Counted from the first letter of the stretch, positions 3,251 to 37,220 are shown. The stretch: DNA of 64,000 nucleotides from Vicinamibacteria bacterium (GCA_965246965.1 CBDFGD010000002.1:3701208-3765207), one strand, 5' to 3'. A program made the numbers and translations. Notes: generated by a model not told the origin, from the sequence alone.

Positions 3251-3311
3251 CAGACGGAATTTCCTAGTTTAAGGTCTCGACAAGTAGCCCTCCCCGTGCG
3301 AGGATCGTCTT

Positions 3312-4220: not shown

Positions 4221-5095
4221 GCATTCCGAAGGCCACGCACACCGGTGAACTCCAAATCGGACCCGTCACCATCGACTGCGCGGTGCTAGATAACGGGCTG
4301 AGAGTCCTGACTCAATCCGGCGTACTTCGTGCCTTAGATCGGTCGAGTCGTCCACAAGGAAAGGGAGCCCGTTTCGAACAGATTGCCCCTTTCCTCGCCT
4401 CTGACAACCTTAAACCCTACATAACAAAGGAACTAGCCGCTTCGAGCAGGCGCATCCGTTTCGCTGTACCAGGACGAGGACACGTTTACGGCTATGAAGC
4501 AGAACTGCTTCCGAAAGCCTGCAACGTATACCTCCAGGCGCGTGATGCCAGAGTGCTTCTTCCCTCGCAACAGCGTACAGCGGCCGCAAGTGATGTGCTG
4601 ATGCGCGGTCTAGCGATGGTAGGCATTGTCGCGCTCGTCGATGAGGCCACGAGTTACCAGGAAATCAGGGATAGGAAGGCCCTGAACAAGATCCTCGACA
4701 AGTACTTGCTGGCGGAACAAGCGAAATGGGCGAAGAGATTTCCTGATGAGTTCTACAAGCAAATCTTCCGGCTTCGAGGGTGGCAATGGCAGGGCATGAA
4801 GGTGAATAGACCGCAAGTTATTGGACGGTACACGAACGATTGCGTGTGGGATCGGCTCGCCCCTGGCGTCAGGAACGAACTTGAGAAACTGAACCCAAAG
4901 ACCGAAACAGGACGCAGGCGAGCCATGCATCACCAATGGCTGACGCACGATGCGGGCCATCCGGCGCTTCAGAAGCATATCAGCGGCGTGATGGCGCTCA
5001 TGCGGGCCTCGACCAAATGGGACAACTTCACGAGGCTGTTGCAACGTGCCTATCCGAAGATCAACACAAATCTAGAGCTACCCATCGACGAATGA
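4217..5095 (+). CDS. Hypothetical protein, passenger gene of the transposon (possibly phage-type P63C-like domain)
   Basis: ATGA overlap with transposase stop; 292-aa ORF in the low-GC island; DEATSYQEIRDRKAL motif. Assignment to a named domain is from memory only. Confidence 0.45.
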   Translation: MSIPKATHTGELQIGPVTIDCAVLDNGLRVLTQSGVLRALDRSSRPQGKGARFEQIAPFLASDNLKPYITKELAASSRRIRFAVPGRGHVYGYEAELLPKACNVYLQARDARVLLPSQQRTAAASDVLMRGLAMVGIVALVDEATSYQEIRDRKALNKILDKYLLAEQAKWAKRFPDEFYKQIFRLRGWQWQGMKVNRPQVIGRYTNDCVWDRLAPGVRNELEKLNPKTETGRRRAMHHQWLTHDAGHPALQKHISGVMALMRASTKWDNFTRLLQRAYPKINTNLELPIDE

Positions 5096-6342
5096 GTAGT
5101 CCGAACTGGGCGCACCAAACCATCTGGACGGGGGATTGCCTCGACATCCTACGCGGCATGAACTCGGCATCGGTCGATCTCGTCTACCTCGATCCGCCCT
5201 TCAACTCGAAAGCGAACTACGCCGCGCCCATCGGGAGCAAGGCGGCCGGTGCAGAGTTCAAGGACATCTGGACGCTCTCGGACGTGGACGTGGAATGGAT
5301 CAACCTCATCGAGGCGAAGCATCCAGCGCTGTACCGCGTTCTGCTCGCTGCAATGACCAACAGCGATAAGTCGTATCTCGCCTACATGGCCGCGCGGCTA
5401 CTCGAACTTCGCCGCGTACTGAAGCCTACCGGATCGCTCTTCCTCCACTGCGACCACACGATGAGCCACTACCTCAAGGTGGTCATGGACTCGATCTTTG
5501 GGCGACACCAGTTCAGGAATGAAATCGTTTGGGCATACTCTGGCTGGAACAAGCAATTACGGGCTCATATAGAGCGTCGGCATGACGTTGTGTTGTTCTA
5601 TGCGGCGTCGAAAGTATCGAAGTTTAACTACCCGACTCGCCCTTGGGATGGCAAGGCCGAATACGTCAAGACTCGGAAGCAGAAGGTCCGGGTTGAAGAC
5701 GATAGGCGAGAGTACGTGTTGTCCGATGCGGGGGGTGGAAAGCGCGTCAAGCGCTACCTCGACGAAGCCATGCAATACGGCGTCCCTTTGGACGACGTGT
5801 GGCGCATCGACAAGCTAAACAACTCGGACAGGGTGGAACGCACCGGCTACCCGACGCAAAAGCCGGTGGCTCTATTGGACCGGATCGTTAAGGCCAGCAC
5901 CAACGCCGGAGACATGGTATTGGACCCGTTCTGCGGGTGCGCGACGGCGTGTATCGCCGCCGAACAACTCCACCGGAATTGGGTAGGTATCGACGTCTCA
6001 CCGAAGGCGGCAGAGTTGGTCCGACAGCGTATGCGCGACGAGCTTGGCCTCTTCTACGATGGTGCTCACCGCACGGACATTCCATTTCGAACGGACCTTG
6101 GCAAGCTGCCACGCTACAACAGCCCAGAGAACCGCCGATGGCTGTACGGCGACCAGGGCGGTCACTGCGCGGGGTGTAACGCCCATTTCGAACCACGTCA
6201 TCTGGAAGTCGATCACATCATTGCCAGGCAGCGGGGAGGCACACACGCGCTGGACAATCTGCAACTGCTCTGCGGCAATTGCAACCGGATAAAAGGAAAC
6301 CGTGGCATGGACTACCTGAGAACCAAGTTACAGCTCAGGTAG
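5092..6342 (+). CDS. Beta-class amino-DNA methyltransferase (N6A/N4C, DPPF motif) fused to a C-terminal HNH nuclease domain
   Basis: Motif IV VDLVYLDPPFNS precedes motif I DPFCGCATA (beta order). C-terminus HCAGCN...EVDHIIARQRGGTHALDNLQLLCGNCN is an HNH motif. ATGA overlap with the upstream gene. Confidence 0.8.
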   Translation: MSSPNWAHQTIWTGDCLDILRGMNSASVDLVYLDPPFNSKANYAAPIGSKAAGAEFKDIWTLSDVDVEWINLIEAKHPALYRVLLAAMTNSDKSYLAYMAARLLELRRVLKPTGSLFLHCDHTMSHYLKVVMDSIFGRHQFRNEIVWAYSGWNKQLRAHIERRHDVVLFYAASKVSKFNYPTRPWDGKAEYVKTRKQKVRVEDDRREYVLSDAGGGKRVKRYLDEAMQYGVPLDDVWRIDKLNNSDRVERTGYPTQKPVALLDRIVKASTNAGDMVLDPFCGCATACIAAEQLHRNWVGIDVSPKAAELVRQRMRDELGLFYDGAHRTDIPFRTDLGKLPRYNSPENRRWLYGDQGGHCAGCNAHFEPRHLEVDHIIARQRGGTHALDNLQLLCGNCNRIKGNRGMDYLRTKLQLR

Positions 6343-6350
6343 CTTAACAA

Positions 6351-7604
6351 TCAAGACCGTAATCTAGGAAATTCCGTCATCAGATAGACCGTGCGCCACA
6401 ACCACCACGCCAGGAAGCCGGAGACCTGGAAGCCGAACACTTCGGCCACGGCGCTTCTGTGGCCGAGCGAGCCCATCTGACCGAGGCCCTTGAAGTCGTA
6501 GCGTTTCTTCGAGCCGCCGCGGACCGTGGCGACGACGTTGTGAGCGGCGATGGCCGCCTGGCGCGTCGCGTGCTGTGCGGTTGGGGGCGCGATACCGCCG
6601 CCTGGCGCCGGTACCCTCGCCGTGTCGCCGAGCGCCCAGACGCTGTGGCCGCTATCGACGTGCAGCTCTTGGTTGACGAGGAGCCTGCCGTTCTCGCTGC
6701 AGGGCAGCCCCAGCGCAGAGACCAGCGGATGAGGGAACGACGGCACCGTCGACACGAGCGTTCGCGTCGGGATGCGCTCCCCGCCCTCGAGGACTGCTTC
6801 GGTTCCGGTCGCGGCGTGGAGCCGCGTGAGCAGCCTCAGGTCGACACCGCGCTTCTTGAGCAGCCGTTGCGCGAACAGGGCCAGCTGCTCCGAGACCTCG
6901 GGAAGCACCCGGTCGCGCGAGTGCAGCAGGACGACGCGAAGCTCCGAAGCATCGATGCCGCGGTAGCTCTTGGCAACGCCGCGCACGAAGTCGTTCAGCT
7001 CGGCGACGACCTCGACGCCGGAGAAGCCGCCGCCCGCGACTACGAACGTCAGCAGCTGTCGACGCAGCTCCGGGTCCGACTCGATCGAGGCCTCCTCGAG
7101 GGCGTGGATGACGTGATTGCGGAGGGCGAGCGCGTCGCCCATGTTCTTGAACGGCATCGCGTGCTCGGGCAGGCCGCGCATGCCGCGAAAGTCCGTGACG
7201 GTGCCGAGGGCGACGACCAGGTGGTCGAAGGGGATCACGTGAGGCTGGGGCCGGAAACCCGGCGCCGTGATGATCTGCTTGTGCTAGACGTCGACGCGCT
7301 CGATCTCGCGCACGTGAATGTCGGTGCGCGGCAGCATGCGGCGCAGCGGGCTGACGATGTCCAGGATGCCGACGCCACCCGAGATCACCTCGGGCAGCAT
7401 CGGCTGGAAGACGAAGTAGTTCTCCTTGTTGACGAGGGCGATCTCGAAATCGTCCCCGCGTCCGAGCCGCTTCTCCAGCTCGAGGGCCGTGTAGACGCCG
7501 GCAAAGCCGCCGCCGAGGACCACGACTCGCGGCTTGCGTGGAGCCGTCAGTGGGCGACTCCGATCAACGGCGGCCACGGAGACACAGAGACGCAGAGAAC
7601 GCAC
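6351..7604 (-). pseudogene. ndh: Type II NADH dehydrogenase (NDH-2, ndh) with in-frame TAG and transposon-truncated C-terminus
   Basis: VVVLGGGFAGVYTA dinucleotide fold and second GGGFSGVE motif. In-frame TAG at 7284-7286 (VDV*HKQII) with the same frame continuing. Last 9 codons (MTEFPRLRS*) are encoded by the transposon IR-R. Confidence 0.7.
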
Positions 7605-7820: not shown

Positions 7821-8987
7821 CTACGCCGGCAGTCCGCGCTGGATGACGTGCTCCATCTCCTCGGCGAAGACATCGACCTCGTCCAGTGTGGTGTAGATGT
7901 TGGGCGTGACGCGAATTCCCTGGAATTCATCATGGACGATCGGCACGACGAAGACGCGTCGCTGCTTCCACAGATGCTCCTTGAGCGCCCGCGGGTCCAC
8001 TCCCTCGATGTTCACTGTGGCGATCGCGCCCGCCATCTCCGGATCGAGGCTGGGGAGGAGCCGGACCCTGGGGTGCTCCTTGAGCCGCAGCGCCCAACGG
8101 TCGCGCAGGTAGCGCAGCCGCGCCGCCTTGCGCTCGACGCCGATGCCGTTGTGGAAGGTCAGCGCCTCGGCGACGGCGTTGTGGTTGGCAGCGGGATGGG
8201 TGCCGATCTCCTCGTACTTGCGGACGTCGTCATCCATCTTCCCCGGAGCGGCCATCAGCGGCCACAGCTTCGGGACCTTCTCCTTGCGGACGTAGAGGAA
8301 GCCGCTGCCGATCGGCGCCAGCAGCCACTTGTGCAGGCTCGTGCCGTAGTAGTCGCAATCGAGATCGTCGCGCGTGAACGGGAAGTGGGCGAAGGCGTGG
8401 GCGCCGTCGACGATGACTTCGATGCCGTGCTCGCGCCCCAGTCGGGCGATCTGCTTGATCGGGAAGATCTGGCCCGTGAGGTTGGTGATGTGGCAAACGA
8501 GGATGACCCTGGTCTTCGGCGTGATCGCCCGTTCGAAGCGCTGCGCGAGGTCGTCCATGCTCGGCGGCGGAGTGGGGAACGAGATCGTCTTGAGGACCAG
8601 GCCCTCGCGACGCTCGCGCTGGCGCCAGGTCGTCAGCATGCGCCCGTAGTCCTGATTGGTCGTCAGGATCTCGTCGCCCGGCTCGAGGATTTCCCACATC
8701 GTGTACACGGGACACTCGTTGGAGCGATCCAGATAGCGCTTGAGCGCCTCGTGAACGTCGGCTGGCGACGGAGAGACGCCCCCGTTGTTGAGGTTGATGA
8801 TCGTGCGATCGACCGTGAAGGCCTGTTGGATCTCTCGCCAGTAGTCCTCGTCGGCCGCGACCGCTTCGGGGCCGCGTCCGGACGTGGCGCGGCTCGCCGC
8901 CTGGACCCGCGCGAGCCCGCCTTCGCGAAGCACCGAAACCGCTGCGGCACTGGCGGCCGCCCCCATGAAACTGCGCCTCGTCGTCAT
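7821..8987 (-). CDS. Class V aminotransferase / cysteine-desulfurase-like PLP enzyme with twin-arginine (Tat) signal peptide
   Basis: MTTRRSFMGAAASAAAVSV Tat motif; SLHKWLLAPIGSGFLYV PLP-lysine region; full-length 388 aa; TAG stop. Confidence 0.8.
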   Translation of the reverse strand: MTTRRSFMGAAASAAAVSVLREGGLARVQAASRATSGRGPEAVAADEDYWREIQQAFTVDRTIINLNNGGVSPSPADVHEALKRYLDRSNECPVYTMWEILEPGDEILTTNQDYGRMLTTWRQRERREGLVLKTISFPTPPPSMDDLAQRFERAITPKTRVILVCHITNLTGQIFPIKQIARLGREHGIEVIVDGAHAFAHFPFTRDDLDCDYYGTSLHKWLLAPIGSGFLYVRKEKVPKLWPLMAAPGKMDDDVRKYEEIGTHPAANHNAVAEALTFHNGIGVERKAARLRYLRDRWALRLKEHPRVRLLPSLDPEMAGAIATVNIEGVDPRALKEHLWKQRRVFVVPIVHDEFQGIRVTPNIYTTLDEVDVFAEEMEHVIQRGLPA

Positions 8988-9111
8988 GGTCCCTCCTCGA
9001 TACGATTCGGATGCCGGATCATAGCGCTTGCCCGAGCTCGATCCCGCGCCGCGGTCATTGGCTCGCCAGGCCGGGAGAGCGTCGCATTCACGTCAGCCAC
9101 GCGCCGGGTCT

Positions 9112-10950
9112 TCAGCCACGCGCGAAGAAGGCGAGGATCGCGAAGTAGGCGACGATCCAGAACAGCGTCGCTCCGACGGGAAGCCGATCGTTGTCGGGGC
9201 TGTAGAGACCGTCCGGCGCGGCCGCGCGTAGCCAGGCCAGCGGATCTCGTAGTCGTCGCTCGACGGTCGCGGCCCACGACGAGGATGCGCGTTCGAGGGC
9301 GGCGCCGCCTCGCGCCGCGAGCTGGGTCAGTGCCACACCGAGCCGCCCACCGGGGCGCCTGTAGAACCAGTCGGTATCGAGGCTGATCGTCTTGGGACCG
9401 CCGAGGCTGTCCCGCAGCCACCAGAAGGCGAGTCCCGTTCCGGCCAGCAGGTGCAGCGATGCGAGGACGTGGCCAGACGTGTAGGGGTGATACCCGGCGC
9501 GGAACGGGAGCCACGCATACAGCAGGCCGGGCTGCACGCCGATCGCGAAGCAGAGCGTGGCGGCGATCGCCATCGCGGCCAGCATGTTGCGCGGAACCGG
9601 CTTGACCTCGGCGTCGCAGCGCTCGCCGAAGAAGACGAAGTAGGGCAGCTTGAGGCCGGTATGAAGGAATGTGCCTACACTGGCCACGAGCAGCAGCAGC
9701 TCGACTCCTTCGCGACCGGCGGCGGCGGCGGCCGACACGATCATCGACTTGCTGACGAAGCCGTTGAACAGGGGAAAGCCCGAGATAGACACGGCCCCGA
9801 CGCAATACAGCAGCAGCACCGCCCGCATTCGCGGGGCGAGCCCTCCCAGCTCCGTGAGGCGGTGGCGTCCGGTAGCGTGGATCACCGCTCCGGCGCCCAT
9901 GAAGAGCAGCCCCTTGTAGAGGATGTGGCAGAAGGCGTGCGCCGCGGCGCCATCGAGGCTCAGCGCCGTGCCGAGGCCCACGCCGGTGACCATGTAGCCG
10001 ACCTGGCTGACGATGTGGTACGCGAGCAGCCGGCGGATGTCGTTCTCGAGCACCGCGTAGACGACGCCGTACAAGGCCATCGCCACTCCGAGCCCAACGA
10101 GGACATCGGCGCCGGGGAAGACCCGGATCAGGACGTAGACAGACGTCTTCGTCGCGAACGCGCTCAAGAAGACGGACGCCGTCACCGAAGCGCGCGGGTA
10201 CGCGTCCGTCAGCCAGGCGTGGAGCGGCGGGATCGCCGCGTTGATCGCGACGCCGCCGAGGATCAGCCAGAACGCGACCGGATCCTGCTCGCGGCTGAGG
10301 GGCGAGACCTGCATGCCGGCTCCTTGCCCGACCGTTCGCATGATGCCGGCGAGCAGCAGCGCTCCGCCGCTCGCGTGCAGCATCAGATAGCGCAACCCCG
10401 CACCGCGCGCGTCGTCTTCCTGGCCGAGCCAGATGAGGACCGCCGAGGCGACGGTGATCAGCTCCCATCCTGCGAACAAGGTGATCCAGTCGCCCGCGAA
10501 AACGACCAGCAGCGACCCGGTCGCGGCGACCAACACGGCCACGTGCTCGCGGCGCCTTTCGACGTGCATCGCGTAGAGGGAGCCGATCACGGTGATCAGC
10601 GTGAAGACCAGACCGAAGAGCCAGCTCAGCCGATCGACGTAAAGAGGCGCCAGATCCCACGCGCCCAGGTGAAGCAAGGACGACTGACCCGGGGCGAGAT
10701 TCAGGACCATGGCGGCGCTCGTGAGCGCGCCTGTGAGCATGAGCGCGCCGCCGCCACGACCGCGGAGCGCGACGAGCAGGGCGCCCGTCGAGACGAGCGC
10801 GACAGCGGGATGGAGGCTCACGGTGACTCGTCGTCGTAGTAGCTCTCGGGCCGCTGCAGCCAGCGGCGTCCGAGCCACTTGGAGATCCAGACGATCGCCG
10901 CGCAGCCGACGAGGCCGAGGACCAGGTCGAAGCCCGGCAGACTGCGCCAA
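9112..10950 (-). CDS. Mrp-type antiporter subunit A/D-like (NuoL/M/N family proton-pumping subunit); true start uncertain
   Basis: Multi-TM ORF with the NuoL/MrpD pattern (WLTDAYPRASVTASVFLSAFATKTSVY..., HAFCHILYKGLLFMGAGAV); last gene of the Mrp-like cluster. Confidence 0.7.
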   Translation of the reverse strand: MAQSAGLRPGPRPRRLRGDRLDLQVARTPLAAAARELLRRRVTVSLHPAVALVSTGALLVALRGRGGGALMLTGALTSAAMVLNLAPGQSSLLHLGAWDLAPLYVDRLSWLFGLVFTLITVIGSLYAMHVERRREHVAVLVAATGSLLVVFAGDWITLFAGWELITVASAVLIWLGQEDDARGAGLRYLMLHASGGALLLAGIMRTVGQGAGMQVSPLSREQDPVAFWLILGGVAINAAIPPLHAWLTDAYPRASVTASVFLSAFATKTSVYVLIRVFPGADVLVGLGVAMALYGVVYAVLENDIRRLLAYHIVSQVGYMVTGVGLGTALSLDGAAAHAFCHILYKGLLFMGAGAVIHATGRHRLTELGGLAPRMRAVLLLYCVGAVSISGFPLFNGFVSKSMIVSAAAAAGREGVELLLLVASVGTFLHTGLKLPYFVFFGERCDAEVKPVPRNMLAAMAIAATLCFAIGVQPGLLYAWLPFRAGYHPYTSGHVLASLHLLAGTGLAFWWLRDSLGGPKTISLDTDWFYRRPGGRLGVALTQLAARGGAALERASSSWAATVERRLRDPLAWLRAAAPDGLYSPDNDRLPVGATLFWIVAYFAILAFFARG

Positions 10951-11023
10951 CCTCCGGTCTCGGCGGCCGAAGCGGCGCGCGCGAGGAGTGCGGCGGGGAG
11001 GGTGATTGCCGCTACGGTCCTGC

Positions 11024-12529
11024 TCATGGTCCGACGGCCCAGCGAACCGGCGCGATCACGACGTCTTCGGCGGCGATCGTTGCGAGCTGGTACAGATCGA
11101 ACAGGGCGTCGGGGTAGATGCCCAGCACGACGCTCGCTCCCGCGGTCGCCGCGATCGGGAGCCAGAGTCGCTTATCCCGTGGCTCGAGGGGCTGGGTCGG
11201 CACGTACTCGTCGAAGAAGCCGGTCCGCACGATCGGGATGAGATAGGCCAGATTCAGCACGCCGCTCAGGACGAGCAGCGGGACGAACAGCGCCCGACCT
11301 GCTTCGACGGCGCCCAGGCCGAGGCTCCACTTACTGACGAAGCCGACAAAGAGCGGCACGCCGGCCAACCCCAGAGCAGCGACGCCGAAGGCCGCGAAGG
11401 TGATGGGCATGTGTCGCCCCAACCCCGCGAGGCCGCTGATGAAGCCGCGCCCCGATGTCCGCTGGATCGCCCCCGCGCAGAAGAACAGCGTGATCTTCAT
11501 GAAGGCGTGGGCGGCGATGTGGAAGAAGGCGCCGAGCAGCGCCAGAAACGAGCCCAGAGCAGCGCCGAGCAGGATGTACGAGAGCTGGCCGATGGTCGAG
11601 TAGGCGAGGCGTCGCTTGAGGTGGTCCTCGCCGAAGGCCCGCAGCGACGCCAACAGGATCGTCGTTCCGGCGAGCGCCGCCAGCGCCACGTCGAGACCCA
11701 ACCCACGCATCAGATCGACGCCGAATACGAAACCCACCACGCGCAGACAGCCGAACACGCCGGCCTTGACGACCGCCACCGCGTGCAGCAGCGCGCTCAC
11801 CGGCGTAGGCGCCACCATTGCGGCCGGCAGCCAGCCGTGGAGGGGCATCAGCGCTGCCTTGACCCCCAAGCCCCCGATGAAGAGCGCGAACAGCGCGACG
11901 CCAGTGAGGTCCGAAACGGCACCGTCGAGAAAGCCGCCTCCGCGAAAGCCCTCGCCGGGAAGGATCCAGGATGTCCAGACCACCGCCACCAGCAACAGCT
12001 GCCCGCCGGTCAACGTGTAGAGCAGATACTTTCTCCCGGCGGCCACCGCCTCCTCGGTCCGGTTGAAGACGACCAGCGGGTAGGTGGCGAGCGTCAACAG
12101 CTCGTAGAAGACGAAGAAAGTCGGCAGGTTCGCTGCGAACGCCACGCCGATCGTCGCGCCCAGGCAAAGAGCGAAGCTGGCGAAGTAGCGCGGCTTTCGC
12201 GCCTCGTCCTCGACCTGGATGTAGCCGAGCGAGTAGACGGAGGTCAAGAGCCAGAGCGTCGAGGCGACGAGGGCAAAGAGCAACCCGAGCGCGTCGACGC
12301 GCAGCTGCAGGTCGTGACCCGGAAAGAGCGGCCAGGCGGGAGACGCCACTGTCCCACCGGCCCGGACGACGGGGAGCAGCGAGACGACGACGCCCAGCTT
12401 GACCACGGCGGCGACCAGCGTCCACAGCATCGCGAGCCCCGCCAGGCGCCGCGTCGCGAGGATGAGCACGGCGGCGATCAGCGAAACGGTGACGGCGATC
12501 ACGGGTCGCCAGGAGACCAGCTCGATCAC
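11024..12529 (-). CDS. Mrp antiporter subunit D-like (NuoM/N family), second paralog
   Basis: WLPAAMVAPTPVSALLHAVAVVKAGVFG and HIAAHAFMKITLFFCAGAI motifs; 501 aa; overlaps neighbour by 4 bp. Confidence 0.8.
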   Translation of the reverse strand: MIELVSWRPVIAVTVSLIAAVLILATRRLAGLAMLWTLVAAVVKLGVVVSLLPVVRAGGTVASPAWPLFPGHDLQLRVDALGLLFALVASTLWLLTSVYSLGYIQVEDEARKPRYFASFALCLGATIGVAFAANLPTFFVFYELLTLATYPLVVFNRTEEAVAAGRKYLLYTLTGGQLLLVAVVWTSWILPGEGFRGGGFLDGAVSDLTGVALFALFIGGLGVKAALMPLHGWLPAAMVAPTPVSALLHAVAVVKAGVFGCLRVVGFVFGVDLMRGLGLDVALAALAGTTILLASLRAFGEDHLKRRLAYSTIGQLSYILLGAALGSFLALLGAFFHIAAHAFMKITLFFCAGAIQRTSGRGFISGLAGLGRHMPITFAAFGVAALGLAGVPLFVGFVSKWSLGLGAVEAGRALFVPLLVLSGVLNLAYLIPIVRTGFFDEYVPTQPLEPRDKRLWLPIAATAGASVVLGIYPDALFDLYQLATIAAEDVVIAPVRWAVGP

Positions 12530-13983
12530 TGCAGGCCCGCAGGCAGCGCCGCGCGGATCACGTGCGCCACGATCGGCTGATTGAACAGGCCGACGAGCGC
12601 GATGCCCGCGGCGAGCGTCGCGATCGGGGCGAGCATCGCGGCGGGCAGCTCCGCGGCGGACGCCCCCTCCGGCGCGGGACGCAGATAGACGCGCTCGAGC
12701 AGGCGGAAGCAGTAGCCTGCCGTGAGCAGCGAGCTCACCACGAGCGCGAAGACGGCGACGCCGTCACCCGCCTCGATCGCACCGATCAGGAGGTAGTACT
12801 TACTGAAGAAGCCCGCCGTCGGGGGCAGGCCGATCAGCGACAGCGTCGCGACGACGAAGGCCGCGCTGGTGGCGGGCATGCGACGGGACAGGCCGGAGAA
12901 ACGATCGAGTCGCACCTCGTGGCGCGAGCCGGCGACGCCGCCCGCGATCAGGAACAGACAGGATTTCATCAGCCCGTGGTGGAGGACGTGCAGCAGCGCG
13001 CCGGTCAGCCCGGCGGCGTTGCCGAGCGCCACGCCGAGCAGAATCGCGCCCATCTGCGCGACGCTCGAGTAGGCCAGCATGCGCCGCACCTCCCGTTGCG
13101 CGATCGCCAGGGCGGAACCCGCGAGGATGGCGACGCAGGCCGCCCAGCTCAGCAGAGGCAGCGCGTGGGCGGCGGGTCCGGCGGCGTCGAACACCCCGTA
13201 CAGGATGCGGATCAAGGCGAAGACGCTGACCTTGGCCATGACCCCCGACGTGAACGCCGCGACGGGCGTCGAGGCGTAGCTGTAGACGTCCGGCAGCCAG
13301 CCATGCAGCGGGAACAGCGCCGCCTTCACCGACAGGCCGACCGTGATGAGCCCCAGCGCCACGGCTAGCGCGGACGTCGCGCCGCTCGCGGGGAGGCGAG
13401 CGGCGACGTCGGCCATGTTCAGCGAGCCGGTCAGCGCGTACAGGTAGCCGACGCCGAGGAGATAGAGGCTGCCGGCCACGGTGCCGACGAGCAGGTAGCG
13501 GAAGCCGGCGACGGCGGCCCTGTCTCCGCCCGAAGCGGTGAGCGCGTACGCCGCCAGGCCGGAAATCTCGAGAAAGACGTAGAGGTTGAACAGGTCGCCG
13601 GTGAGGGTCATGCCGACGAGGCCGCCGACGAGCAGCAGGTAAAGCGAGGCGAACGCCCCTGCCGAGATCCCCGCTCGCGCCGCGTCGCGGCCGGAGTAGA
13701 TCCACACGAGCAGAGCGATCAGCTGTAAGAGCGCCGCGAGGGCGGCCGCCACCGGGCCGGCGATCAGCTCGATGCCCCAGGGCGGCGGCCAGCCTCCGAC
13801 GAAGTGGCGCACGCTGCCCAGCTTCAACGTCTCGCCCAGCAGGCCGCAGCACGTAACGAGGCCGGCGACCAGGCTCCAGAGCGTGACGAGACGTACCGCC
13901 CGCGCGGAGCGCAGTCCGACCAACGGAGCGGCGAGCGCGCCGATCAGCGGGACGACGATCGCGAGCGGGAGCGCGCTCGTCAA
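12526..13983 (-). CDS. Mrp antiporter subunit D-like (NuoM/N family), first paralog
   Basis: WLPDVYSYASTPVAAFTSGVMAKVSVF and HVLHHGLMKSCLFLIAGGV motifs; 485 aa. Confidence 0.8.
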   Translation of the reverse strand: MTSALPLAIVVPLIGALAAPLVGLRSARAVRLVTLWSLVAGLVTCCGLLGETLKLGSVRHFVGGWPPPWGIELIAGPVAAALAALLQLIALLVWIYSGRDAARAGISAGAFASLYLLLVGGLVGMTLTGDLFNLYVFLEISGLAAYALTASGGDRAAVAGFRYLLVGTVAGSLYLLGVGYLYALTGSLNMADVAARLPASGATSALAVALGLITVGLSVKAALFPLHGWLPDVYSYASTPVAAFTSGVMAKVSVFALIRILYGVFDAAGPAAHALPLLSWAACVAILAGSALAIAQREVRRMLAYSSVAQMGAILLGVALGNAAGLTGALLHVLHHGLMKSCLFLIAGGVAGSRHEVRLDRFSGLSRRMPATSAAFVVATLSLIGLPPTAGFFSKYYLLIGAIEAGDGVAVFALVVSSLLTAGYCFRLLERVYLRPAPEGASAAELPAAMLAPIATLAAGIALVGLFNQPIVAHVIRAALPAGLQ

Positions 13984-14345
13984 CGTTCGCGCATTCGTTG
14001 CAGAAGCTCGTGCTCATCGAGAGTGCCGTAGCGCCGCGAGATGCGGATCAGCAGTGCCAGAGCCACGCCCGTCGTGCTGACCGCGACGACGATCGCCGTC
14101 AGCATCAGCGTGTGAGGGAGCGGGTTCGCGTAGTCACTCGCGCGCAACAATGACTCGCCGTGCGCGGCCACGGGCGGCGCGGCCTGAGTTTTGTGGCCCA
14201 GGAGTATGAAGAAGACGATCACGCCGACCTGGAGGATGTTGAGCGCCATCAGCTTGCGGAGCAGGTTGGGCGTCTGCACCAACCCGAGCAGACCCAGCGC
14301 TACCAGCGTGACGGTAGCCAGGTAGGCGGCGTCCGAGGCGCTCAT
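13980..14345 (-). CDS. Mrp antiporter subunit C (NuoK-like)
   Basis: 121-aa 3-TM protein, LMALNILQVGVIVFFILLG pattern; operon position between B and D. Confidence 0.8.
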   Translation of the reverse strand: MSASDAAYLATVTLVALGLLGLVQTPNLLRKLMALNILQVGVIVFFILLGHKTQAAPPVAAHGESLLRASDYANPLPHTLMLTAIVVAVSTTGVALALLIRISRRYGTLDEHELLQRMRER

Positions 14346-15073
14346 GCGGCCGCGTCGTCGTCCGAAACGGGGGCGAGGCAGTAGAAGATCAGGGACAGCA
14401 CGCCGGTGACGGCAATGAACACGCTGGCCTCGATGACCAGGGTCGAGAGCGCTCGCTTGGCCGCTCCCGCGGCCGGCAGTGGCAACGCCGAGTAGTCGAG
14501 GTAGCTGCCGCCGAATGCGAGCGCGGCCGCGCCGATCCCGGCGTACAAGAGAGCGCCGCCGCAGGCGAGCGCGACGGCCGCCTCGGGCCTCAGTCCCCAG
14601 GCGACGTCCCGGCCGTGGACCAGACGGACGAGGATCAAGGCGCCAGCCAACACCGCGCCGCCCTGAAAGCCACCCCCGGGGCTGTCGTGTCCGTGGGCGA
14701 GGACGTAGGCGGCGAAGAGCATCAGAAACGGCGTGAGCAATCGCACGGCGGCGTCCAGCACCGGGCTGCCGAAGGCCGCCGGCGCCGGCCGTCGCTCCGC
14801 GGTCGCGTGGCCGCCGAGGAGCAGCAGCATGCAGGCGATTCCGGCGGCGAAGACGACGAGCGTCTCCCCGAGCGTGTCGAAGCCGCGATAGTCGGCGAGC
14901 ACGGCGGTCACCATGTTGTCGGCGCCGGTCTCCGCCCGAGCCCTCTCGATGTAGCGCGGGGAAACGTGGCGGGACGCGGGCGAGTCCGGATCACCGAGCG
15001 ACGGTAGGTCGCGGGCCGCCCAGAACAGCAGCGCCGCCGCCGGCAGCGCTGCCAGCCAGGCCGCCCGCCTCAC
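14342..15073 (-). CDS. Mrp antiporter subunit B (MnhB-like)
   Basis: Contains the MnhB signature ...ETGADNMVTAVLADYRGFDTLGE.... Candidate GTG start at 15073 overlaps the stop of the upstream DUF4040 ORF (GTGA). Confidence 0.65.
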   Translation of the reverse strand: MRRAAWLAALPAAALLFWAARDLPSLGDPDSPASRHVSPRYIERARAETGADNMVTAVLADYRGFDTLGETLVVFAAGIACMLLLLGGHATAERRPAPAAFGSPVLDAAVRLLTPFLMLFAAYVLAHGHDSPGGGFQGGAVLAGALILVRLVHGRDVAWGLRPEAAVALACGGALLYAGIGAAALAFGGSYLDYSALPLPAAGAAKRALSTLVIEASVFIAVTGVLSLIFYCLAPVSDDDAAA

Positions 15074-15333
15074 CGGCGAGCCCTCCGACCGGTGCGGTCG
15101 ATGGCGACGACGAAGAAGACCGTCGTGATGGCGCCACCGATGACGGCCTCCGTGAGGGCGACGTCTACGGCGCCGAGCACGGCAAAGAACAGCGCCGAGA
15201 AGAAGCTGAACGCGCTGAAGACGAGGACCGCCGCGAACAGGTCGCGGACGAGCAGCACGGCGACGGCGCATGCGAGCATGCACACGAGAAACAGCGCGGC
15301 GAGGGGCTCCGTCACTCGGGACTCCGACGCCAC
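15070..15333 (-). CDS. DUF4040-like small membrane protein (MnhB N-terminal / MbhD-like)
   Basis: 87-aa 3-TM ORF ...AVDVALTEAVIGGAITTVFF... typical of the MrpA-C-terminal/MrpB-N-terminal domain. May be fused to the downstream mrpB if a frameshift is present. Confidence 0.55.
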   Translation of the reverse strand: MASESRVTEPLAALFLVCMLACAVAVLLVRDLFAAVLVFSAFSFFSALFFAVLGAVDVALTEAVIGGAITTVFFVVAIDRTGRRARR

Positions 15334-15611
15334 GGCTTCAGGCCGGCTCGATACGCCGCGCGGCCCAGCGCGTGTGTCGCCGTGGGGTTGGCGAGCGCGA
15401 CGAAGAGCAGGATCAACAGGATCTTGCCGCTCTCGAGCACGAAGCCTTCGAGCGCGGCGATTCCGAGCGCGACGAGGGCCATGCCGAGGGTGTCGTTCTT
15501 GCCGAGCACGTGAAGGCGCGTGTAGAAATCGGGGAGGCGGATGACGCCGACGGCGCCCGTGAGGAGAATCAGGGTGCCGGCCGCCAGCAGCGGGAGGGCG
15601 ACCACGCTCAT
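15312..15611 (-). CDS. Mrp antiporter subunit G
   Basis: 99 aa, LLTGAVGVIRLPDFYTRLHVLGKNDTLG motif of MnhG. Confidence 0.75.
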   Translation of the reverse strand: MSVVALPLLAAGTLILLTGAVGVIRLPDFYTRLHVLGKNDTLGMALVALGIAALEGFVLESGKILLILLFVALANPTATHALGRAAYRAGLKPWRRSPE

Positions 15612-15877
15612 TCGGCCGCCTTGCGGATCTCGACGTAGCGCGCCAGCGCCAGCGTTCCGATGAAAGCGATCATCGCGTAGGCGAGCGCGATGTCGAGGTA
15701 GACGTCGAGGCGATCGCTCAACTCTCCGACCAGCAGCAGCAATACGATCGTCTTGGTGAGCATGACACCGAGGCCGCTGAGTCGATCCCAGATCGTTGGG
15801 CCACGCAGCACCCGGTACAGCGCCGCGAGCAGTCCGAGCAGGATCGCGCCGCCCGCGGCTTGAAGGGCGTACGTCAT
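15608..15877 (-). CDS. Mrp antiporter subunit F
   Basis: 89 aa, YRVLRGPTIWDRLSGLGVM pattern of MnhF. Confidence 0.75.
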   Translation of the reverse strand: MTYALQAAGGAILLGLLAALYRVLRGPTIWDRLSGLGVMLTKTIVLLLLVGELSDRLDVYLDIALAYAMIAFIGTLALARYVEIRKAAE

Positions 15878-16425
15878 TTCGTTTCGGGGGGCGCCTCGAA
15901 CAGCGCTGCGACTCTCGTGACCAGGGGGTCGGAGGCGTCGATCCGATCCCCTCGCGTCAGCGCGTGGACGACGTACTCGTCGCCCTCGACGTCGAGGGTC
16001 ACCGTGCCGGGAGTCAGCGTTATCGAGTTGGCCAGCGTGAGCCTGGCGAGATTGTGAGGCAGCGGGCGGGTGACGCGAACGACGTCAGGATCGATAGGCA
16101 GGGACGGGTGAATCACCACGTAAGCGACCTGCAGGCTCGCCTGGACGATGCGCACGATCAGCCACGGTATGTAGCCGAGCAGGCGCATCCAGGGGTGGCC
16201 CGCGAGCGGGTGCTCGCCGGGGTTTCCGATCGGGGGTGCGAGCAGCAGCAGCGGCTGCGTCGCCACCGCGATCCCGAGGGCGCTCAGGATGCCCAGGCCG
16301 AGATGGAATGGATCGGCCCGGCCCGAAAGGAGCAGCCAGAAGAAGAGCAGAACGCCCGCGAGCGGGAGTACGTGCCGACCGAAACGGCGTGGGATCCGGC
16401 TCGGGGCCGGCTGGCGCTGGCTCAC
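15874..16425 (-). CDS. Mrp antiporter subunit E
   Basis: 183 aa, two N-terminal TM helices and soluble C-domain resembling MnhE; first gene of the cluster. Confidence 0.65.
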   Translation of the reverse strand: MSQRQPAPSRIPRRFGRHVLPLAGVLLFFWLLLSGRADPFHLGLGILSALGIAVATQPLLLLAPPIGNPGEHPLAGHPWMRLLGYIPWLIVRIVQASLQVAYVVIHPSLPIDPDVVRVTRPLPHNLARLTLANSITLTPGTVTLDVEGDEYVVHALTRGDRIDASDPLVTRVAALFEAPPETK

Positions 16426-16462
16426 TCGCCCGAAAACTCTACCCGAAACGTCTGAGGTGCGC

Positions 16463-17200
16463 TCAGCCGACCCACAGCAGTACCGCGAACACGATCACGG
16501 CCAGGTTGACCACGACCCGCAGCCAGCGATGGCCTTTGAGGATCGTCATCCGGACGCCGAACTCGCTCCCGACCATGCTGCCCACGGCGAGGCAGAGTCC
16601 CGGTCCCCACTCGACCATTCCCTGCCAGACGAAGATCGCGAGGGAGAGCGGGGTGAAGACCAGGATGCAGGCGAACTTGAGGGCGTTGCCACGGACCAGG
16701 TCGACGCCCGCCAGCGTCGTGACGGAGAGGATCAGAAAGCCCACGCCCGCCTGCACGAAGCCACCGTAGATTCCGACGACGAAGAAGCCGCCCGAGACGA
16801 GCAGGGAGGTCGGCGGGGCAGGCGTCTCGCGCGGCTGCCAGGGAACGACCAGCGTGAGCAGCGTGAGCACGACCATGAGCATGGCGAGCAGCCGCCTGAA
16901 GTCGGGGTCTTCCACGAGCAGCGCCAGTCCCGTTCCGAGCACGGCTCCGAGGACGGCGGCGGGCGCCGTCGCACTGGCCCAGCGTCGGTCGAGGACGCCC
17001 CGCTGATCGAACGCGTGCGCTCCCCAGAGGCTCTGAGCGAGGATCCCGACCCGATTGGTGGCGTTCGCGACGGTGGGGGGAAGGCCCATCCAGATCAGGA
17101 CGGGGAGTGTCAGAAACGATCCGCCCCCCGCCACGACGTTGATCGCTGCGGCGACGGCCCCGGCGACCGCGAGCGCGACGTAGGAGAGGGCTTCGTCCAT
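16463..17200 (-). CDS. TauE/SafE family sulfite/anion exporter (DUF81)
   Basis: 245-aa, 7-8 TM; internally duplicated GxxxG-rich halves typical of DUF81. Confidence 0.75.
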   Translation of the reverse strand: MDEALSYVALAVAGAVAAAINVVAGGGSFLTLPVLIWMGLPPTVANATNRVGILAQSLWGAHAFDQRGVLDRRWASATAPAAVLGAVLGTGLALLVEDPDFRRLLAMLMVVLTLLTLVVPWQPRETPAPPTSLLVSGGFFVVGIYGGFVQAGVGFLILSVTTLAGVDLVRGNALKFACILVFTPLSLAIFVWQGMVEWGPGLCLAVGSMVGSEFGVRMTILKGHRWLRVVVNLAVIVFAVLLWVG

Positions 17201-17252
17201 GCGATAACCTACCTCGCTCTGACGTCACGGATCGGGCGATCTCGGAGGTGCG

Positions 17253-18365
17253 ATGGACTGGCTGAATCAATGGCTCCCGTTCGAGGGACAGGTCGTGTGG
17301 CTCGGGGACGTCGTGGTTCTCCTCGTTGCCGGGGTCGTCGTGGATTTTCTCCAGCGACGGCTGCTCTCGCGGCTCGCCGTCAAAGCGCAGCGCACGGTGA
17401 ACTTCTGGGATGATGCGCTGATTGGGGCGCTGCGCGCGCCCCTGAGCCTGCTCGTCTGGGTCGTCGTCACCACGCTGTCACTCCAGATTGCCAATCAGGG
17501 AGCCCCGGAGGGCTTCGCCCGCTTCGTTCCCGAGGTTCGTGAGATCGGGGTGCTCGTCGCGGTCACGTGGATCATGATCCGATGGATCAGCAACGTTCAC
17601 GCCTCGCTGCTGGATCGTCCGCGGCTCGCGGGCCGCGATCTTGACAAGACGACCATCGACGCGCTGAGTCGACTCGCCAACCTTGCGATCGCGGTGGTCG
17701 CGACGATCACCGTGTTGCAGACTATGGGCTTCGATCTGAGCGCGGTGCTCGCCGTCGGTGGCATCGGTGGTGTGGCCGTCGGCTTCGCGAGCCGAGACGT
17801 CGTGGCCAACTTCTTCGGTGGCCTGATGATCTTCGCGATGCAGCCCTTCAACGAGGGCGACTGGATCCGCTCGCCGGACCGAGAGATCGAGGGGACGGTC
17901 GAGCAGGTCGGCTGGTACTCGACGATCATTCGGACCTTTGACAGTCGTCCTCTCTACGTGCCGAACGCGATCTTCACGGGCATCTCTCTCGAGAACCCGT
18001 CGCGGATGAAGAACCGGCGCATCTACGAGACGTTCGGGCTCAGCTACGACGACTTCGCACAGGTCGAGCCGATCGTCGCCGCCGTCGAGAAGATGCTGCG
18101 AGAGCACCCGGAGATCGAGGCCGAACGGCAGACTCTGATGGTCAACCTCAACCAGTTCTCGCCGTCGACGCTCGATTTCTTCATCTACGTCTTCACGAAG
18201 ACCAGGAGCTGGACCGAGTTTCACGCGGTCAAGCAGGACGTGCTTCGCCGCATCGGCGAGATCGTGGCGGAACATGGCGCCGAGTTGGCGTTCCCGACGC
18301 AGACGATCCTGCTGCCGGAGTCCATGATCGAAGCTCGCGCGAGCCGCCGTACGGGCGAGTCCTAG
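17253..18365 (+). CDS. Mechanosensitive ion channel family protein (MscS-like)
   Basis: SD GGAGG before the ATG; conserved MscS core ...VGGIGGVAVGFASRDVVANFFGGLMIFAMQPFNEGDWI... Confidence 0.85.
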   Translation: MDWLNQWLPFEGQVVWLGDVVVLLVAGVVVDFLQRRLLSRLAVKAQRTVNFWDDALIGALRAPLSLLVWVVVTTLSLQIANQGAPEGFARFVPEVREIGVLVAVTWIMIRWISNVHASLLDRPRLAGRDLDKTTIDALSRLANLAIAVVATITVLQTMGFDLSAVLAVGGIGGVAVGFASRDVVANFFGGLMIFAMQPFNEGDWIRSPDREIEGTVEQVGWYSTIIRTFDSRPLYVPNAIFTGISLENPSRMKNRRIYETFGLSYDDFAQVEPIVAAVEKMLREHPEIEAERQTLMVNLNQFSPSTLDFFIYVFTKTRSWTEFHAVKQDVLRRIGEIVAEHGAELAFPTQTILLPESMIEARASRRTGES

Positions 18366-34526: not shown

Positions 34527-34528
34527 CC

Positions 34529-36119: not shown

Positions 36120-36121
36120 CG

Positions 36122-37085: not shown

Positions 37086-37220
37086 CTAGCGCCGCTTGAC
37101 GTGCTCGAGAGGGACGAACTGGGATTTTGCGGGGCGTGGGCCGGGGCCGAGTTTGCGCCAGAGGTAGGCGAGGGCGGCGGCGACGATCAGCCAGACGGTG
37201 ACGTCTTGCCAGCTATGCAC
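37086..37220 (-). CDS. Small single-TM protein immediately downstream of feoB (FeoB-associated small membrane protein-like)
   Basis: GTG overlapping the feoB TAG; 44 aa, VHSWQDVTVWLIVAAALAYLWRKLGPGP...; no Cys-rich tail. Confidence 0.3.
   Translation of the reverse strand: MHSWQDVTVWLIVAAALAYLWRKLGPGPRPAKSQFVPLEHVKRR

What the first reader, a model, noticed from the sequence alone, without database searches (positions are those of the whole stretch)
9112..16425. Mrp-type cluster in E-F-G-B-C-D-D-D(A-like) order with three antiporter-like paralogs, 16 kb from the partial nuo module
Gene order mrpE-F-G-(DUF4040)-B-C followed by three NuoL/M/N-like subunits mirrors the membrane-arm organisation of Mbh/Mbx-type energy-converting complexes rather than the standard mrpABCDEFG. 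Together with the nuoB/CD/G/I module in the same window, this could be either a split modular respiratory complex or a stand-alone multi-pump Mrp antiporter.
Basis: partly seen in the sequence, partly recalled or inferred. Interest (0 to 1): 0.5.

Follow-up and report, generated by a model that had tools for sequence, protein, structure and literature searches.

The report
Ten-gene, three-pump Mrp cation/proton antiporter operon
This is an intact operon for a multi-subunit Mrp-type cation/proton antiporter with three pump subunits, a widespread and already annotated kind that stands on its own and shows no link to the nearby partial complex I genes.

Summary
Window 9112-16425 (minus strand) is one tightly packed operon of Mrp genes.

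- **D1** is an MrpD orthologue.
- **D2** has the MrpA/NuoL-type TM8 His+Lys signature but no lateral helix.
- **D3** carries the TM15, lateral helix and TM16 extension. Its TM7 lysine is replaced by an asparagine that is invariant in 82 homologues.

For the nine subunits searched (mrpG and X excepted), the closest solved homologue of eight is a chain of the Pyrococcus MBS (Mbx) membrane arm; D2's best is MbhH of MBH. The "Mbh/Mbx-like organisation" therefore holds.

The same gene order occurs in 40 of 42 Mrp-context loci from many phyla, with no adjacent NuoB/CD/I genes. This is the "group 3" Mrp type, noted in genome papers as MrpEFGBCD1D2D3.

The nuoB-CD-G-I module 15.7 kb away is a separate four-gene operon conserved in Vicinamibacteria relatives. 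It is of true complex I type. No NuoH-like anchor is encoded anywhere in the window.

Verdict: a stand-alone three-pump Mrp antiporter, a new member of a known but biochemically uncharacterised subtype. Modest interest.

The parts
15874..16425 (-). mrpE (183 aa), first gene of the operon
   Evidence: Pfam MNHE 114.8 bits. Best solved homologue is MbsA, 6u8y_A, 90.6 bits. 84% identical to the L082 orthologue, dN/dS 0.17.
15608..15877 (-). mrpF (89 aa)
   Evidence: Pfam MrpF_PhaF 54.1 bits. Best solved homologue is MbsB, 49.7 bits. Gly replaces the Asp equivalent to B. pseudofirmus MrpF Asp38, and none of the 40 homologues of this subtype has Asp there.
15312..15611 (-). mrpG (99 aa)
   Evidence: Pfam PhaG_MnhG_YufB 87.7 bits. 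NCBIfam TIGR01300 82.8 bits, above the cutoff of 63.1.
15070..15315 (-). mbhD-like gene (81 aa; DUF4040), equivalent to MrpA TMH17-19
   Evidence: Pfam MbhD PF13244 68.7 bits. The GTG start overlaps the mrpG stop by 4 nt. Best solved homologues are MbsD and MbhD, and the DVALTE glutamate is conserved. An 81-aa orthologue is called in L082.
14342..15073 (-). mbhE + mrpB fusion (about 243 aa), equivalent to MrpA TMH20-21 plus MrpB, as in MbsE
   Evidence: Pfam MbhE plus MnhB. Best solved homologue is MbsE, 6u8y_E, 93.1 bits. The GTG start overlaps the mbhD stop. The DTLGE glutamate and the H..PGGGF motif are present.
13980..14345 (-). mrpC (121 aa; NuoK-like)
   Evidence: Pfam Oxidored_q2 75.5 bits. 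Best solved homologue is MbsG, 63.9 bits.
12526..13983 (-). D1: MrpD-type antiporter-like subunit (485 aa)
   Evidence: Proton_antipo_M 220.9 bits. Best solved homologues are MbsH 223, MbhH 210 and MrpD 192 bits. TM5 Glu139, TM7 Lys220, TM8 Lys251 and TM12 Lys395 are present.
11024..12529 (-). D2: MrpA(N)/NuoL-class antiporter-like subunit without a lateral helix (501 aa)
   Evidence: Proton_antipo_M 187.8 bits plus a weak Proton_antipo_N hit. TM8 has His249 and Lys255, as in MrpA. Glu143, Lys224 and Lys400 are conserved in all 75 homologues. No clear orthologue among solved chains.
10818..11027 (-). X: conserved 69-aa membrane protein (two predicted TM segments) with no family assignment
   Evidence: ATG ORF overlapping the D2 stop and the D3 start by 4 nt. 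A 69-aa gene is called at the same place in L082 and L083. Homologues lie directly upstream of D3 in nearly all of the 82 loci holding a D3 homologue, in both Mrp and complex I contexts, and always as a separate ORF. 173 clusters in the 1.84-billion-protein library, all 40-137 aa among the 150 listed. No Pfam, NCBIfam or PDB match. dN/dS 0.48.
9112..10821 (-). D3: distal antiporter-like subunit with TM15, lateral helix and TM16 extension (569 aa)
   Evidence: NCBIfam PRK12668 641.9 bits, above the cutoff of 564. 100% identical to P0001. Best sequence match among solved chains is MbsH' at 122.8 bits. The AF2 model (pLDDT 77) shows a 14-TM core, a helix at 449-474, a helix at 491-524 and a TM at 549-568. 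Best fold matches are MrpA 7qru_A (TM-score 0.77 on the query) and NuoL chains. The TM7 Lys is replaced by Asn194 in 82 of 82 homologues.

Best explanation
The region is a single ten-gene operon: mrpE-F-G-mbhD-(mbhE/mrpB)-mrpC-D1-D2-X-D3. It encodes a stand-alone 'group 3' Mrp (CPA3) complex, a secondary cation/proton antiporter driven by the proton motive force. Inferred architecture, by homology to the Mrp, MBH and MBS structures: the small subunits E, F, G, B, MbhD/E and C form the cation (probably Na+) path. D1, D2 and D3 follow as a row of three proton-conducting antiporter-like subunits. D3 sits at the distal end, and its lateral helix and last TM run back along the row. The job of canonical MrpA is divided among D2 (MrpA-type TM8 His/Lys), D3 (lateral helix) and MbhD/MbhE (the MrpA C-terminal domain). 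A third pump would be expected to raise the H+ per cation ratio above the 2H+/Na+ proposed for two-pump Mrp, which would favour cation extrusion or pH homeostasis at a low driving force. Shown here: gene content, order, integrity, conserved residues, and conservation of the operon across phyla. Inferred: subunit arrangement, ion specificity, stoichiometry and direction of transport.
For: All Mrp modules are present and intact. Nine 4-nt start/stop overlaps indicate translational coupling. dN/dS is 0.08-0.48 for all ten genes against L082. The identical order is found in 40 of 42 Mrp-context loci from Acidobacteriota, Verrucomicrobiota, Bacillota, Dehalococcoidia, Ignavibacteria, Gemmatimonadota, Planctomycetota, Syntrophales, Methanomicrobiales and others. 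In 792 kb of these loci there are only two weak Nuo-like hits. The charged-axis residues are conserved in D1 and D2, and all but the TM7 Lys in D3. The equivalents of the Na+-loading glutamates are conserved (residues as defined in PMC9568556). D3 passes the NCBIfam equivalog 'Na(+)/H(+) antiporter subunit D'. The D3 model has an MrpA/NuoL-like C-terminal extension. In the literature, group 3 Mrp is defined by having no mrpA and sometimes several mrpD, and P. furiosus has a stand-alone mrpEFGBB'CD that uses Na+ (PMC8415708). 'MrpEFGBCD1D2D3' is annotated as a Na+/H+ antiporter in Verruconatronum (PMC13274419). The flanking genes tauE and mscS are ion or osmotic homeostasis genes and are conserved in the close relative.
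Against: I found no biochemical or structural study of this three-pump subtype. Ion specificity is therefore assumed, and Thermomicrobium Mrp is a Ca2+/H+ antiporter (PMC5703873). MrpF lacks the Asp conserved in all five solved homologues. D3 lacks the TM7 Lys. The lateral helix is modelled with low confidence, pLDDT below 50. The role of X is unknown. The closest solved relatives are the membrane arm of a redox-driven complex (MBS), not a stand-alone antiporter.
Confidence: 0.8

Rival explanations
1. Split respiratory complex: the Mrp cluster is the membrane arm, and the nuoB-CD-G-I module 15.7 kb away is the redox arm, of one Mbx/MBS-like energy-converting complex encoded at two loci.
For: For eight of the nine Mrp subunits searched, the best solved homologue is an MBS (6u8y) chain. 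The nuo module has no membrane subunits of its own in the window or in three relatives. Both loci lie in the same 64-kb window.
Against: No NuoH/MbhM-like anchor is present in the window, yet it is required in every known complex of this superfamily. NuoB, NuoD and NuoI pass the complex I models, which are not hydrogenase or Mbx-type models. The two loci are on opposite strands, separated by more than ten unrelated genes and an IS. Relatives L081, L084 and L085 carry the nuo operon with no Mrp genes within 10 kb, and L082 carries the Mrp operon with no nuo genes within 10 kb. 42 Mrp-context loci from many phyla lack Nuo neighbours.
Confidence: 0.04
2. Same architecture but different chemistry. 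The subtype-specific changes (no Asp at the MrpF Asp38 position, Asn for the TM7 Lys in D3, extra subunit X) mean that the complex moves another cation (K+, Ca2+) or works with a different coupling or direction than Na+/H+ antiport.
For: Among the 40 homologous MrpF ORFs of this subtype that position is G, N, S or A and never Asp, whereas all five solved homologues have Asp. Asn194 is invariant in 82 D3 homologues. There are precedents: a Ca2+/H+ Mrp in Thermomicrobium and a K+/H+ Pha system (PMC5703873). MbsH has Glu rather than Lys at the TM7 position (PMC8165549).
Against: The two glutamates proposed as Na+-loading sites, and the MrpB His/Phe gate, are conserved. NCBI and JGI name the family a Na+/H+ antiporter, though by homology only. 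The soda-lake organism Verruconatronum carries this type as its only multisubunit Na+/H+ antiporter (PMC13274419).
Confidence: 0.13
3. [quoted passage not shown] The operon would then serve two complexes.
For: Homologues of D2-X-D3 (46-56% identity for D3) sit inside complex I operons at the NuoL position in 24 loci. Published work says two MrpD-like subunits replace NuoL in green complex I (PMC9040806). A relative (L085) has a nuo cluster that ends with a single antiporter-like gene.
Against: In the window and in 40 other loci the cassette is translationally coupled to the Mrp genes. No membrane nuo genes are present in the window to receive it. I know of no precedent for a subunit shared between Mrp and complex I.
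Confidence: 0.03

Closest known systems
Group 3 Mrp antiporters, e.g. the Pyrococcus furiosus stand-alone Mrp (mrpEFGBB'CD, PF1147-53)
   Same: The gene order E-F-G-B-B'-C-D is the same. There is no single mrpA gene. The MrpA C-terminal domain is supplied by MbhD/MbhE-like genes. The operon is stand-alone, without redox genes (PMC8415708).
   Different: The window has three antiporter-like subunits instead of one. One of them carries a lateral helix. It also has the small subunit X. MbhE is fused to MrpB here, whereas P. furiosus Mrp fuses MbhD to MbhE.
Membrane arm of the P. furiosus MBS (Mbx) sulfane-sulfur reductase, PDB 6u8y
   Same: It is the best solved homologue of eight of the nine subunits searched: MbsA, B, D, E, G, H and H'. 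It has the same MbhE+MbhF fusion (MbsE). Its distal subunit, MbsH', also has TM15, a lateral helix and TM16 (PMC8165549).
   Different: MBS has two antiporter-like subunits, and the redox module MbsJKLMN is encoded in the same operon. The window has three such subunits plus X and no NuoH-like or redox genes in the operon. D3 has Asn where MbsH' has Lys217.
Canonical group 1 and 2 Mrp (Bacillus pseudofirmus 7qru, Anoxybacillus 6z16, Dietzia 7d3u)
   Same: All functional modules are present. The Glu/Lys charged axis in the pump subunits, the Glu780-equivalent and the MrpB His/Phe motif are conserved. The D3 fold matches MrpA best.
   Different: The gene order differs. MrpA is split into D2, D3 and MbhD/E. 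There is a third pump subunit and the subunit X. The MrpF Asp38 is absent. The TMH19 acidic residue lies one helical turn earlier, as in MBH and MBS.
'Green' complex I of rhizobia and Complex_I_3 of Ca. Manganitrophaceae (two MrpD-like subunits replace NuoL)
   Same: The D2-X-D3 cassette is homologous (D3 46-56% identical). It has the same Asn at TM7 and the same lateral helix on the second subunit (PMC9040806).
   Different: There the cassette is embedded in a nuo operon between nuoK and nuoM. Here it is the 3' end of an Mrp operon.
Genome annotations 'MrpEFGBCD1D2D3' (Verruconatronum alginivorum) and 'MrpEFGBBCDD' (Solemya velum symbiont)
   Same: The operon type is the same, and it is reported as a multisubunit Na+/H+ antiporter (PMC13274419, PMC4287430).
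   Different: These are annotation-level mentions only. The passages I read mention neither the small X gene nor any residue-level analysis.

Membership tests
Mrp / CPA3 multisubunit cation:proton antiporter | All Mrp modules (A-N, A-C, B, C, D, E, F, G equivalents) are encoded in one operon | tested here: met
   Pfam and NCBIfam hits for MNHE, MrpF, MrpG, MbhD, MbhE, MnhB, Oxidored_q2 and three Proton_antipo_M proteins.
Mrp / CPA3 multisubunit cation:proton antiporter | Conserved charged axis (TM5 Glu, TM7 Lys, TM8 Lys/His, TM12 Lys) in the antiporter-like subunits | tested here: met
   D1 and D2 have the complete set. D3 has Glu120, Lys225 and Lys358, but Asn194 at TM7.
Mrp / CPA3 multisubunit cation:proton antiporter | Acidic residues of the proposed Na+ path (MrpA Glu687 and Glu780 equivalents, MrpF Asp38) | tested here: inconclusive
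   The TMH19-equivalent Glu (DVALTE) and the DTLGE Glu are present. The MrpF Asp38 equivalent is Gly here and is never Asp in the subtype.
Mrp / CPA3 multisubunit cation:proton antiporter | Measured cation/H+ antiport activity | not testable with these tools
   This needs expression in E. coli KNabc or reconstitution.
Group 3 Mrp (Swartz 2005; Ito 2017; as summarised in PMC8415708) | No mrpA gene, one or more mrpD-like genes, irregular order (EFGBB'CD...) | tested here: met
   There is no fused MrpA. There are three D-like genes, in the order E-F-G-MbhD-MbhE/B-C-D1-D2-X-D3.
NCBIfam PRK12668 'Na(+)/H(+) antiporter subunit D' (equivalog), for D3 | Whole-protein score at or above the curated cutoff | tested here: met
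   641.9 bits against a cutoff of 564. D1 and D2 fall below the cutoffs of their best equivalog models: 351.7 against 700 and 523.1 against 718.
MBH/MBS (Mbx)-type energy-converting respiratory complex | A NuoH/MbhM-like membrane anchor and NuoB/C/D/I-like redox subunits encoded with the Mrp module | tested here: not met
   No NuoH homologue is found in the window at E below 0.01. There are no redox genes in the operon, nor in 40 of 42 homologous loci.
MBH/MBS (Mbx)-type energy-converting respiratory complex | Catalytic subunit of the hydrogenase or MbxL type rather than NuoD | tested here: not met
   The nearby NuoCD passes TIGR01962 NuoD (484.5 against 459.35) and PRK06075 (482.2 against 360). 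Its hydrogenase large-subunit hit is only 19.7 bits.
'Green' complex I (MrpD pair replacing NuoL) | The D2-X-D3 cassette lies inside a nuo operon, next to nuoJ/K and nuoM/N | tested here: not met
   In the window the cassette follows mrpC and D1. The nuo module lacks J, K, M and N.

The most novel reading that the evidence does not exclude
The ten-subunit 'EFG-MbhD-MbhE/B-C-D1-D2-X-D3' complex may be a mechanistically distinct CPA3 subclass. It would be a three-pump Mrp whose distal D2-X-D3 cassette is a portable 'pump extension' module, the same module that was grafted onto complex I in the green and Manganitrophus-type enzymes. Its signature would be Asn for the TM7 Lys in D3, an undescribed small subunit X, and loss of the MrpF Asp. 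Together these would give a different H+/cation stoichiometry or ion specificity from the Mrp complexes studied so far.
Probability: 0.3. Interest if true: 0.55.

Novelty: new member of a known kind. Interest (0 to 1): 0.3.

Why it matters
For annotation, the region should be called a stand-alone group 3 Mrp antiporter with ten genes. It should not be merged with the nuo genes into a hypothetical respiratory complex.

More broadly, this operon type is very widespread. It occurs in dozens of phyla, and its D3 subunit has thousands of database relatives. Yet I found no structure and no transport assay for it.

It is the natural "missing link" between two-pump Mrp and the three-pump membrane arm of complex I. 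It also shares its D2-X-D3 cassette with complex I variants that have extra pumps. A structure or a stoichiometry measurement would test current models of how pump number sets the H+/ion ratio. It would also show what the conserved, unannotated small subunit X does.

Tried and rejected
- **Exact-sequence look-ups** of MrpC and P0001, meant to recover the source contig, found nothing. Cluster look-up gave no names. The source organism is therefore inferred only as Vicinamibacteria-like, from the named best hits.
- **Rfam and tRNA scans** of the window found nothing.
- **The promoter and terminator scan** of 8800-17600 gave only intragenic consensus matches and is uninformative.
- **P0040** (657 aa) was considered as a natural X-D3 fusion for structure modelling. 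Its sequence diverges from X halfway through, which looks like a frameshift artefact, so I dropped it.
- **X fused to D2 or D3** elsewhere: never, in 75 of 75 cases.
- **X against Pfam, NCBIfam and a PDB profile search**: no family and no structure.
- **Length of the D3 C-terminal tail** as a way to decide whether the lateral helix spans two or three pumps: rejected. My estimate of the MrpA tail (about 207 aa, partly from memory), NuoL (about 214, position from memory) and D3 (212) are too similar to discriminate.
- **Literature searches** for a characterised three-D Mrp found only annotation-level mentions.
- **The rest of complex I** in this genome or in close relatives could not be examined.

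Full report
**What is there**

The window is high-GC DNA (about 66-70% G+C). On the minus strand, from 16425 down to 9112, lies an uninterrupted row of genes with strong third-position GC bias.

Pfam and NCBIfam identify them in order:
- MrpE (MNHE, 114.8 bits)
- MrpF (54.1 bits)
- MrpG (87.7 bits)
- an MbhE+MnhB protein
- MrpC (NuoK-like, 75.5 bits)
- three Proton_antipo_M proteins

The first 70 residues of the listed 313-aa "B" ORF read like non-coding sequence. An 87-aa ORF in another frame covers that stretch and scores 68.7 bits to Pfam MbhD (formerly DUF4040).

The DNA shows that the mbhD gene starts at a GTG overlapping the mrpG stop (15315). The next gene starts at a GTG overlapping the mbhD stop (15073).

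D3 starts at 10821 rather than at the first in-frame start. A 100%-identical database protein is 569 aa long, and homologues begin at the same Met.

**A tenth gene**

A close relative (L082; 65-92% amino-acid identity per gene) has the identical operon. There the gene caller also places a 69-aa gene between D2 and D3.

The window has the same ORF, which I call X (10818-11027). It starts with ATG and overlaps the D2 stop and the D3 start by 4 nt each.

So the operon has ten genes. Nine of its junctions are 4-nt overlaps. All ten genes are under purifying selection against L082, with dN/dS of 0.08-0.48. The details above are refinements.

**The three large subunits**

D1 is a plain MrpD orthologue. 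Its best solved homologues are MbsH (223 bits), MbhH (210) and MrpD of Anoxybacillus (192). It has the full Glu/Lys/Lys/Lys charged axis.

D2 has no clear orthologue among solved chains: MbhH 134, MbsH 129, NdhF 124 and MrpA 113 bits. It does carry the MrpA/NuoL-type TM8 signature, His249 plus Lys255, which matches "ylHsatmvKag" of B. pseudofirmus MrpA. It also gives a weak NuoL-type N-terminal domain hit. At 501 aa it has no room for a lateral helix.

D3 passes the NCBIfam equivalog PRK12668 (641.9 against 564). Its best sequence match among solved chains is MbsH' (122.8 bits).

The AlphaFold model of D3 (pLDDT 77, pTM 0.82) has four parts:
- a 14-TM core
- a further helix at 449-474
- a 34-residue helix at 491-524, modelled with low confidence
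- a terminal TM at 549-568

Its best fold matches are MrpA of B. pseudofirmus (TM-score 0.77 on the query, 611 aligned columns) and NuoL chains. D3 therefore has the NuoL/MrpA(N) topology with a lateral helix.

One residue stands out. The TM7 lysine (Lys217 in MbsH', as listed in PMC8165549) is Asn194 in D3. It is Asn in all 82 homologues collected, while Glu120, Lys225, His295, His299, Lys303 and Lys358 are invariant.

The three paralogues are 30-35% identical to one another.

**The small subunits**

For the nine subunits searched, the best solved homologue of all but D2 is a chain of the P. furiosus MBS complex (6u8y):

| Window subunit | Best solved homologue | Bits |
|---|---|---|
| MrpE | MbsA | 90.6 |
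| MrpF | MbsB | 49.7 |
| MbhD | MbsD | 38.3 |
| MbhE/B | MbsE | 93.1 |
| MrpC | MbsG | 63.9 |

The MbhE+MrpB fusion is the same fusion as MbsE, as described in PMC8415708.

The residues proposed as Na+-loading sites in B. pseudofirmus Mrp (PMC9568556) are mostly present:
- The acidic residue on the TMH19 equivalent is there (DVALTE), one helical turn earlier than in Bacillus, as in MBH and MBS.
- The Glu780 equivalent (DTLGE) is there, in 33 of 33 loci where the motif was found.
- The MrpB His and Phe are there.

The exception is MrpF Asp38. All five solved homologues have Asp at this position. The window has Gly, and in the 40 homologous MrpF ORFs of this subtype the residue is G, N, S or A and never Asp.

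**Subunit X**

X has a variable N-terminal hydrophobic segment. A conserved second segment and tail follow: W..PGF...G.VGC..IV..SKWLG...LQRPEDYYD.

Homologues lie immediately upstream of D3 in nearly all of the 82 loci that hold a D3 homologue, whether the context is Mrp or complex I. X is always a separate ORF.

An exhaustive search of 1.84 billion representative proteins finds 173 clusters; the 150 listed are all 40-137 aa long. X has no Pfam, NCBIfam or PDB match. I found no mention of it in the papers read. Its role is unknown.

**Comparative genomics**

A scan of one genome per species, using a D3 alignment, returned 80 loci. I classified their ORFs against the window proteins:
- 42 loci have the Mrp context, and 40 of these contain all eight families in the same order.
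- These come from Acidobacteriota, Verrucomicrobiota, Bacillota, Dehalococcoidia, Ignavibacteria, Gemmatimonadota, Planctomycetota, Syntrophales, Gammaproteobacteria and Methanomicrobiales.
- In the 792 kb of sequence these loci cover, there are only two weak Nuo-like hits (44-46 bits).
- 24 loci show D2-X-D3 inside complex I operons, at the NuoL position. Examples are Rhizobium, Mesorhizobium, Ensifer, Leisingera, Moritella and Desulfobacteraceae. These are the published "green complex I", in which two MrpD-like subunits replace NuoL and the second one carries the amphipathic helix (PMC9040806).
- 14 loci were too short to classify.

**The literature**

Group 3 Mrp operons are defined by the lack of mrpA and sometimes by several mrpD copies. 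P. furiosus has a stand-alone mrpEFGBB'CD that uses Na+ (PMC8415708, PMC5703873).

The exact operon type has been listed as "Mnh/MrpEFGBCD1D2D3" in Verruconatronum (PMC13274419) and as "MrpEFGBBCDD" in the Solemya symbiont (PMC4287430).

I found no structure or transport assay for it.

**The nuo module**

On the plus strand lie four genes:
- nuoB, 32146-32829
- a fused nuoCD, 32826-34526
- a short nuoG, 34529 to about 36119
- nuoI, 36122-36709

Searches with complex I proteins from eleven loci find no NuoA, E, F, H, J or K anywhere in the window. NuoB, NuoD and NuoI pass complex I models and not hydrogenase models.

The module is not an artefact of the IS upstream. Three relatives with 77-79% identical NuoCD (L081, L084, L085) have the same four-gene operon, with an intact 528-529-aa NuoG. 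Their flanks are unrelated, and none has Mrp genes within 10 kb. L082 likewise has no nuo genes within 10 kb of its Mrp operon.

In the window the two loci are on opposite strands. Between them lie tauE, mscS, a Ser/Thr kinase, a HEAT-repeat protein, glycosyltransferases and an IS.

**Interpretation**

The best-supported reading is a stand-alone group 3 Mrp antiporter with three pump subunits (confidence about 0.8).

Its mechanism is inferred by homology. The small subunits provide the cation path. D1, D2 and D3 provide proton paths linked by the central charged axis and clamped by the D3 lateral helix. Steiner and Sazanov note that the two-pump unit can be extended to three or four with the same mechanism (PMC7419157). 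A third pump would therefore be expected to raise the H+/cation ratio above the 2:1 proposed for Bacillus Mrp (PMC9568556).

The split-respiratory-complex reading fails on the absence of a NuoH-like anchor and on the lack of conserved linkage (confidence about 0.04).

An open question is whether the subtype-specific substitutions (MrpF without the Asp, D3 with Asn at TM7) and subunit X change ion specificity or coupling (confidence about 0.13).

**Novelty and interest**

The operon is a new member of a known, widely annotated but experimentally uncharacterised subtype. The more exciting alternative was not.

These details are, as far as I could find, undescribed: the tenth gene, the invariant Asn in D3, the missing Asp in MrpF, and the sharing of the D2-X-D3 cassette with green complex I. 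They apply to the whole subtype and not to this window in particular.

Noticed in passing
window 10818-11027 (-): Small gene X (69 aa) between D2 and D3. It is a conserved membrane-protein family with no Pfam, NCBIfam or PDB match. It lies directly upstream of D3 homologues in both Mrp operons and 'green' complex I operons.
   Followed up: yes
window 32146-36709 (+): The nuoB-nuoCD-nuoG(short)-nuoI operon has no membrane or NuoE/F genes. The same four-gene operon stands alone in three Vicinamibacteria-like relatives (L081, L084, L085). Where its NuoH and membrane partners are encoded is unknown.
   Followed up: partly
window 35374-35436 (+): Frameshift inside nuoG. Residues 1-282 of the relative's NuoG align in one frame and residues 308-516 in the next. 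Relatives have an intact 528-529-aa NuoG. This is either a pseudogene or a sequencing error.
   Followed up: yes
window 30545-32048: A 1.5-kb IS with perfect 19-nt terminal inverted repeats and a DUF772/DDE_Tnp_1 transposase (30772-32013, minus strand). It is inserted 98 nt upstream of the nuoB start.
   Followed up: partly
window 2792-7604 (-): The gene for an NDH-2 fused to a cNMP-binding domain (intact and 550 aa in relative L082) is broken twice. A 3.1-kb mobile element (3253-6378, 28-nt terminal inverted repeats, three ORFs, low GC) splits it. There is also an in-frame TAG at 7284-7286. Both NADH dehydrogenase loci in the window therefore carry lesions.
   Followed up: partly
window 16463-18365: tauE (minus strand, 38 nt upstream of mrpE, possibly co-transcribed) and a divergent mscS channel gene flank the operon. 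Both are conserved at this position in the close relative L082, but not in the other 80 loci.
   Followed up: partly
L085 1-4488: A relative carries a second complex I-like cluster, NuoD-NuoH-NuoI-NuoJ-NuoK followed by a single 501-aa antiporter-like gene. It lies 8 kb upstream of its nuoB-CD-G-I operon. It is either an unusually short membrane arm or an operon whose other pump genes are encoded elsewhere.
   Followed up: no
window 15608-15877 (-) and 40 homologous MrpF ORFs: In this Mrp subtype, MrpF never has the Asp that corresponds to B. pseudofirmus MrpF Asp38 (it is G, N, S or A). A Lys a few residues downstream (the G-T-K motif) is common instead.
   Followed up: partly
window 37213-39668 (-): A feoA-feoB ferrous iron transporter pair lies immediately downstream of the nuo module, on the opposite strand.
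   Followed up: no
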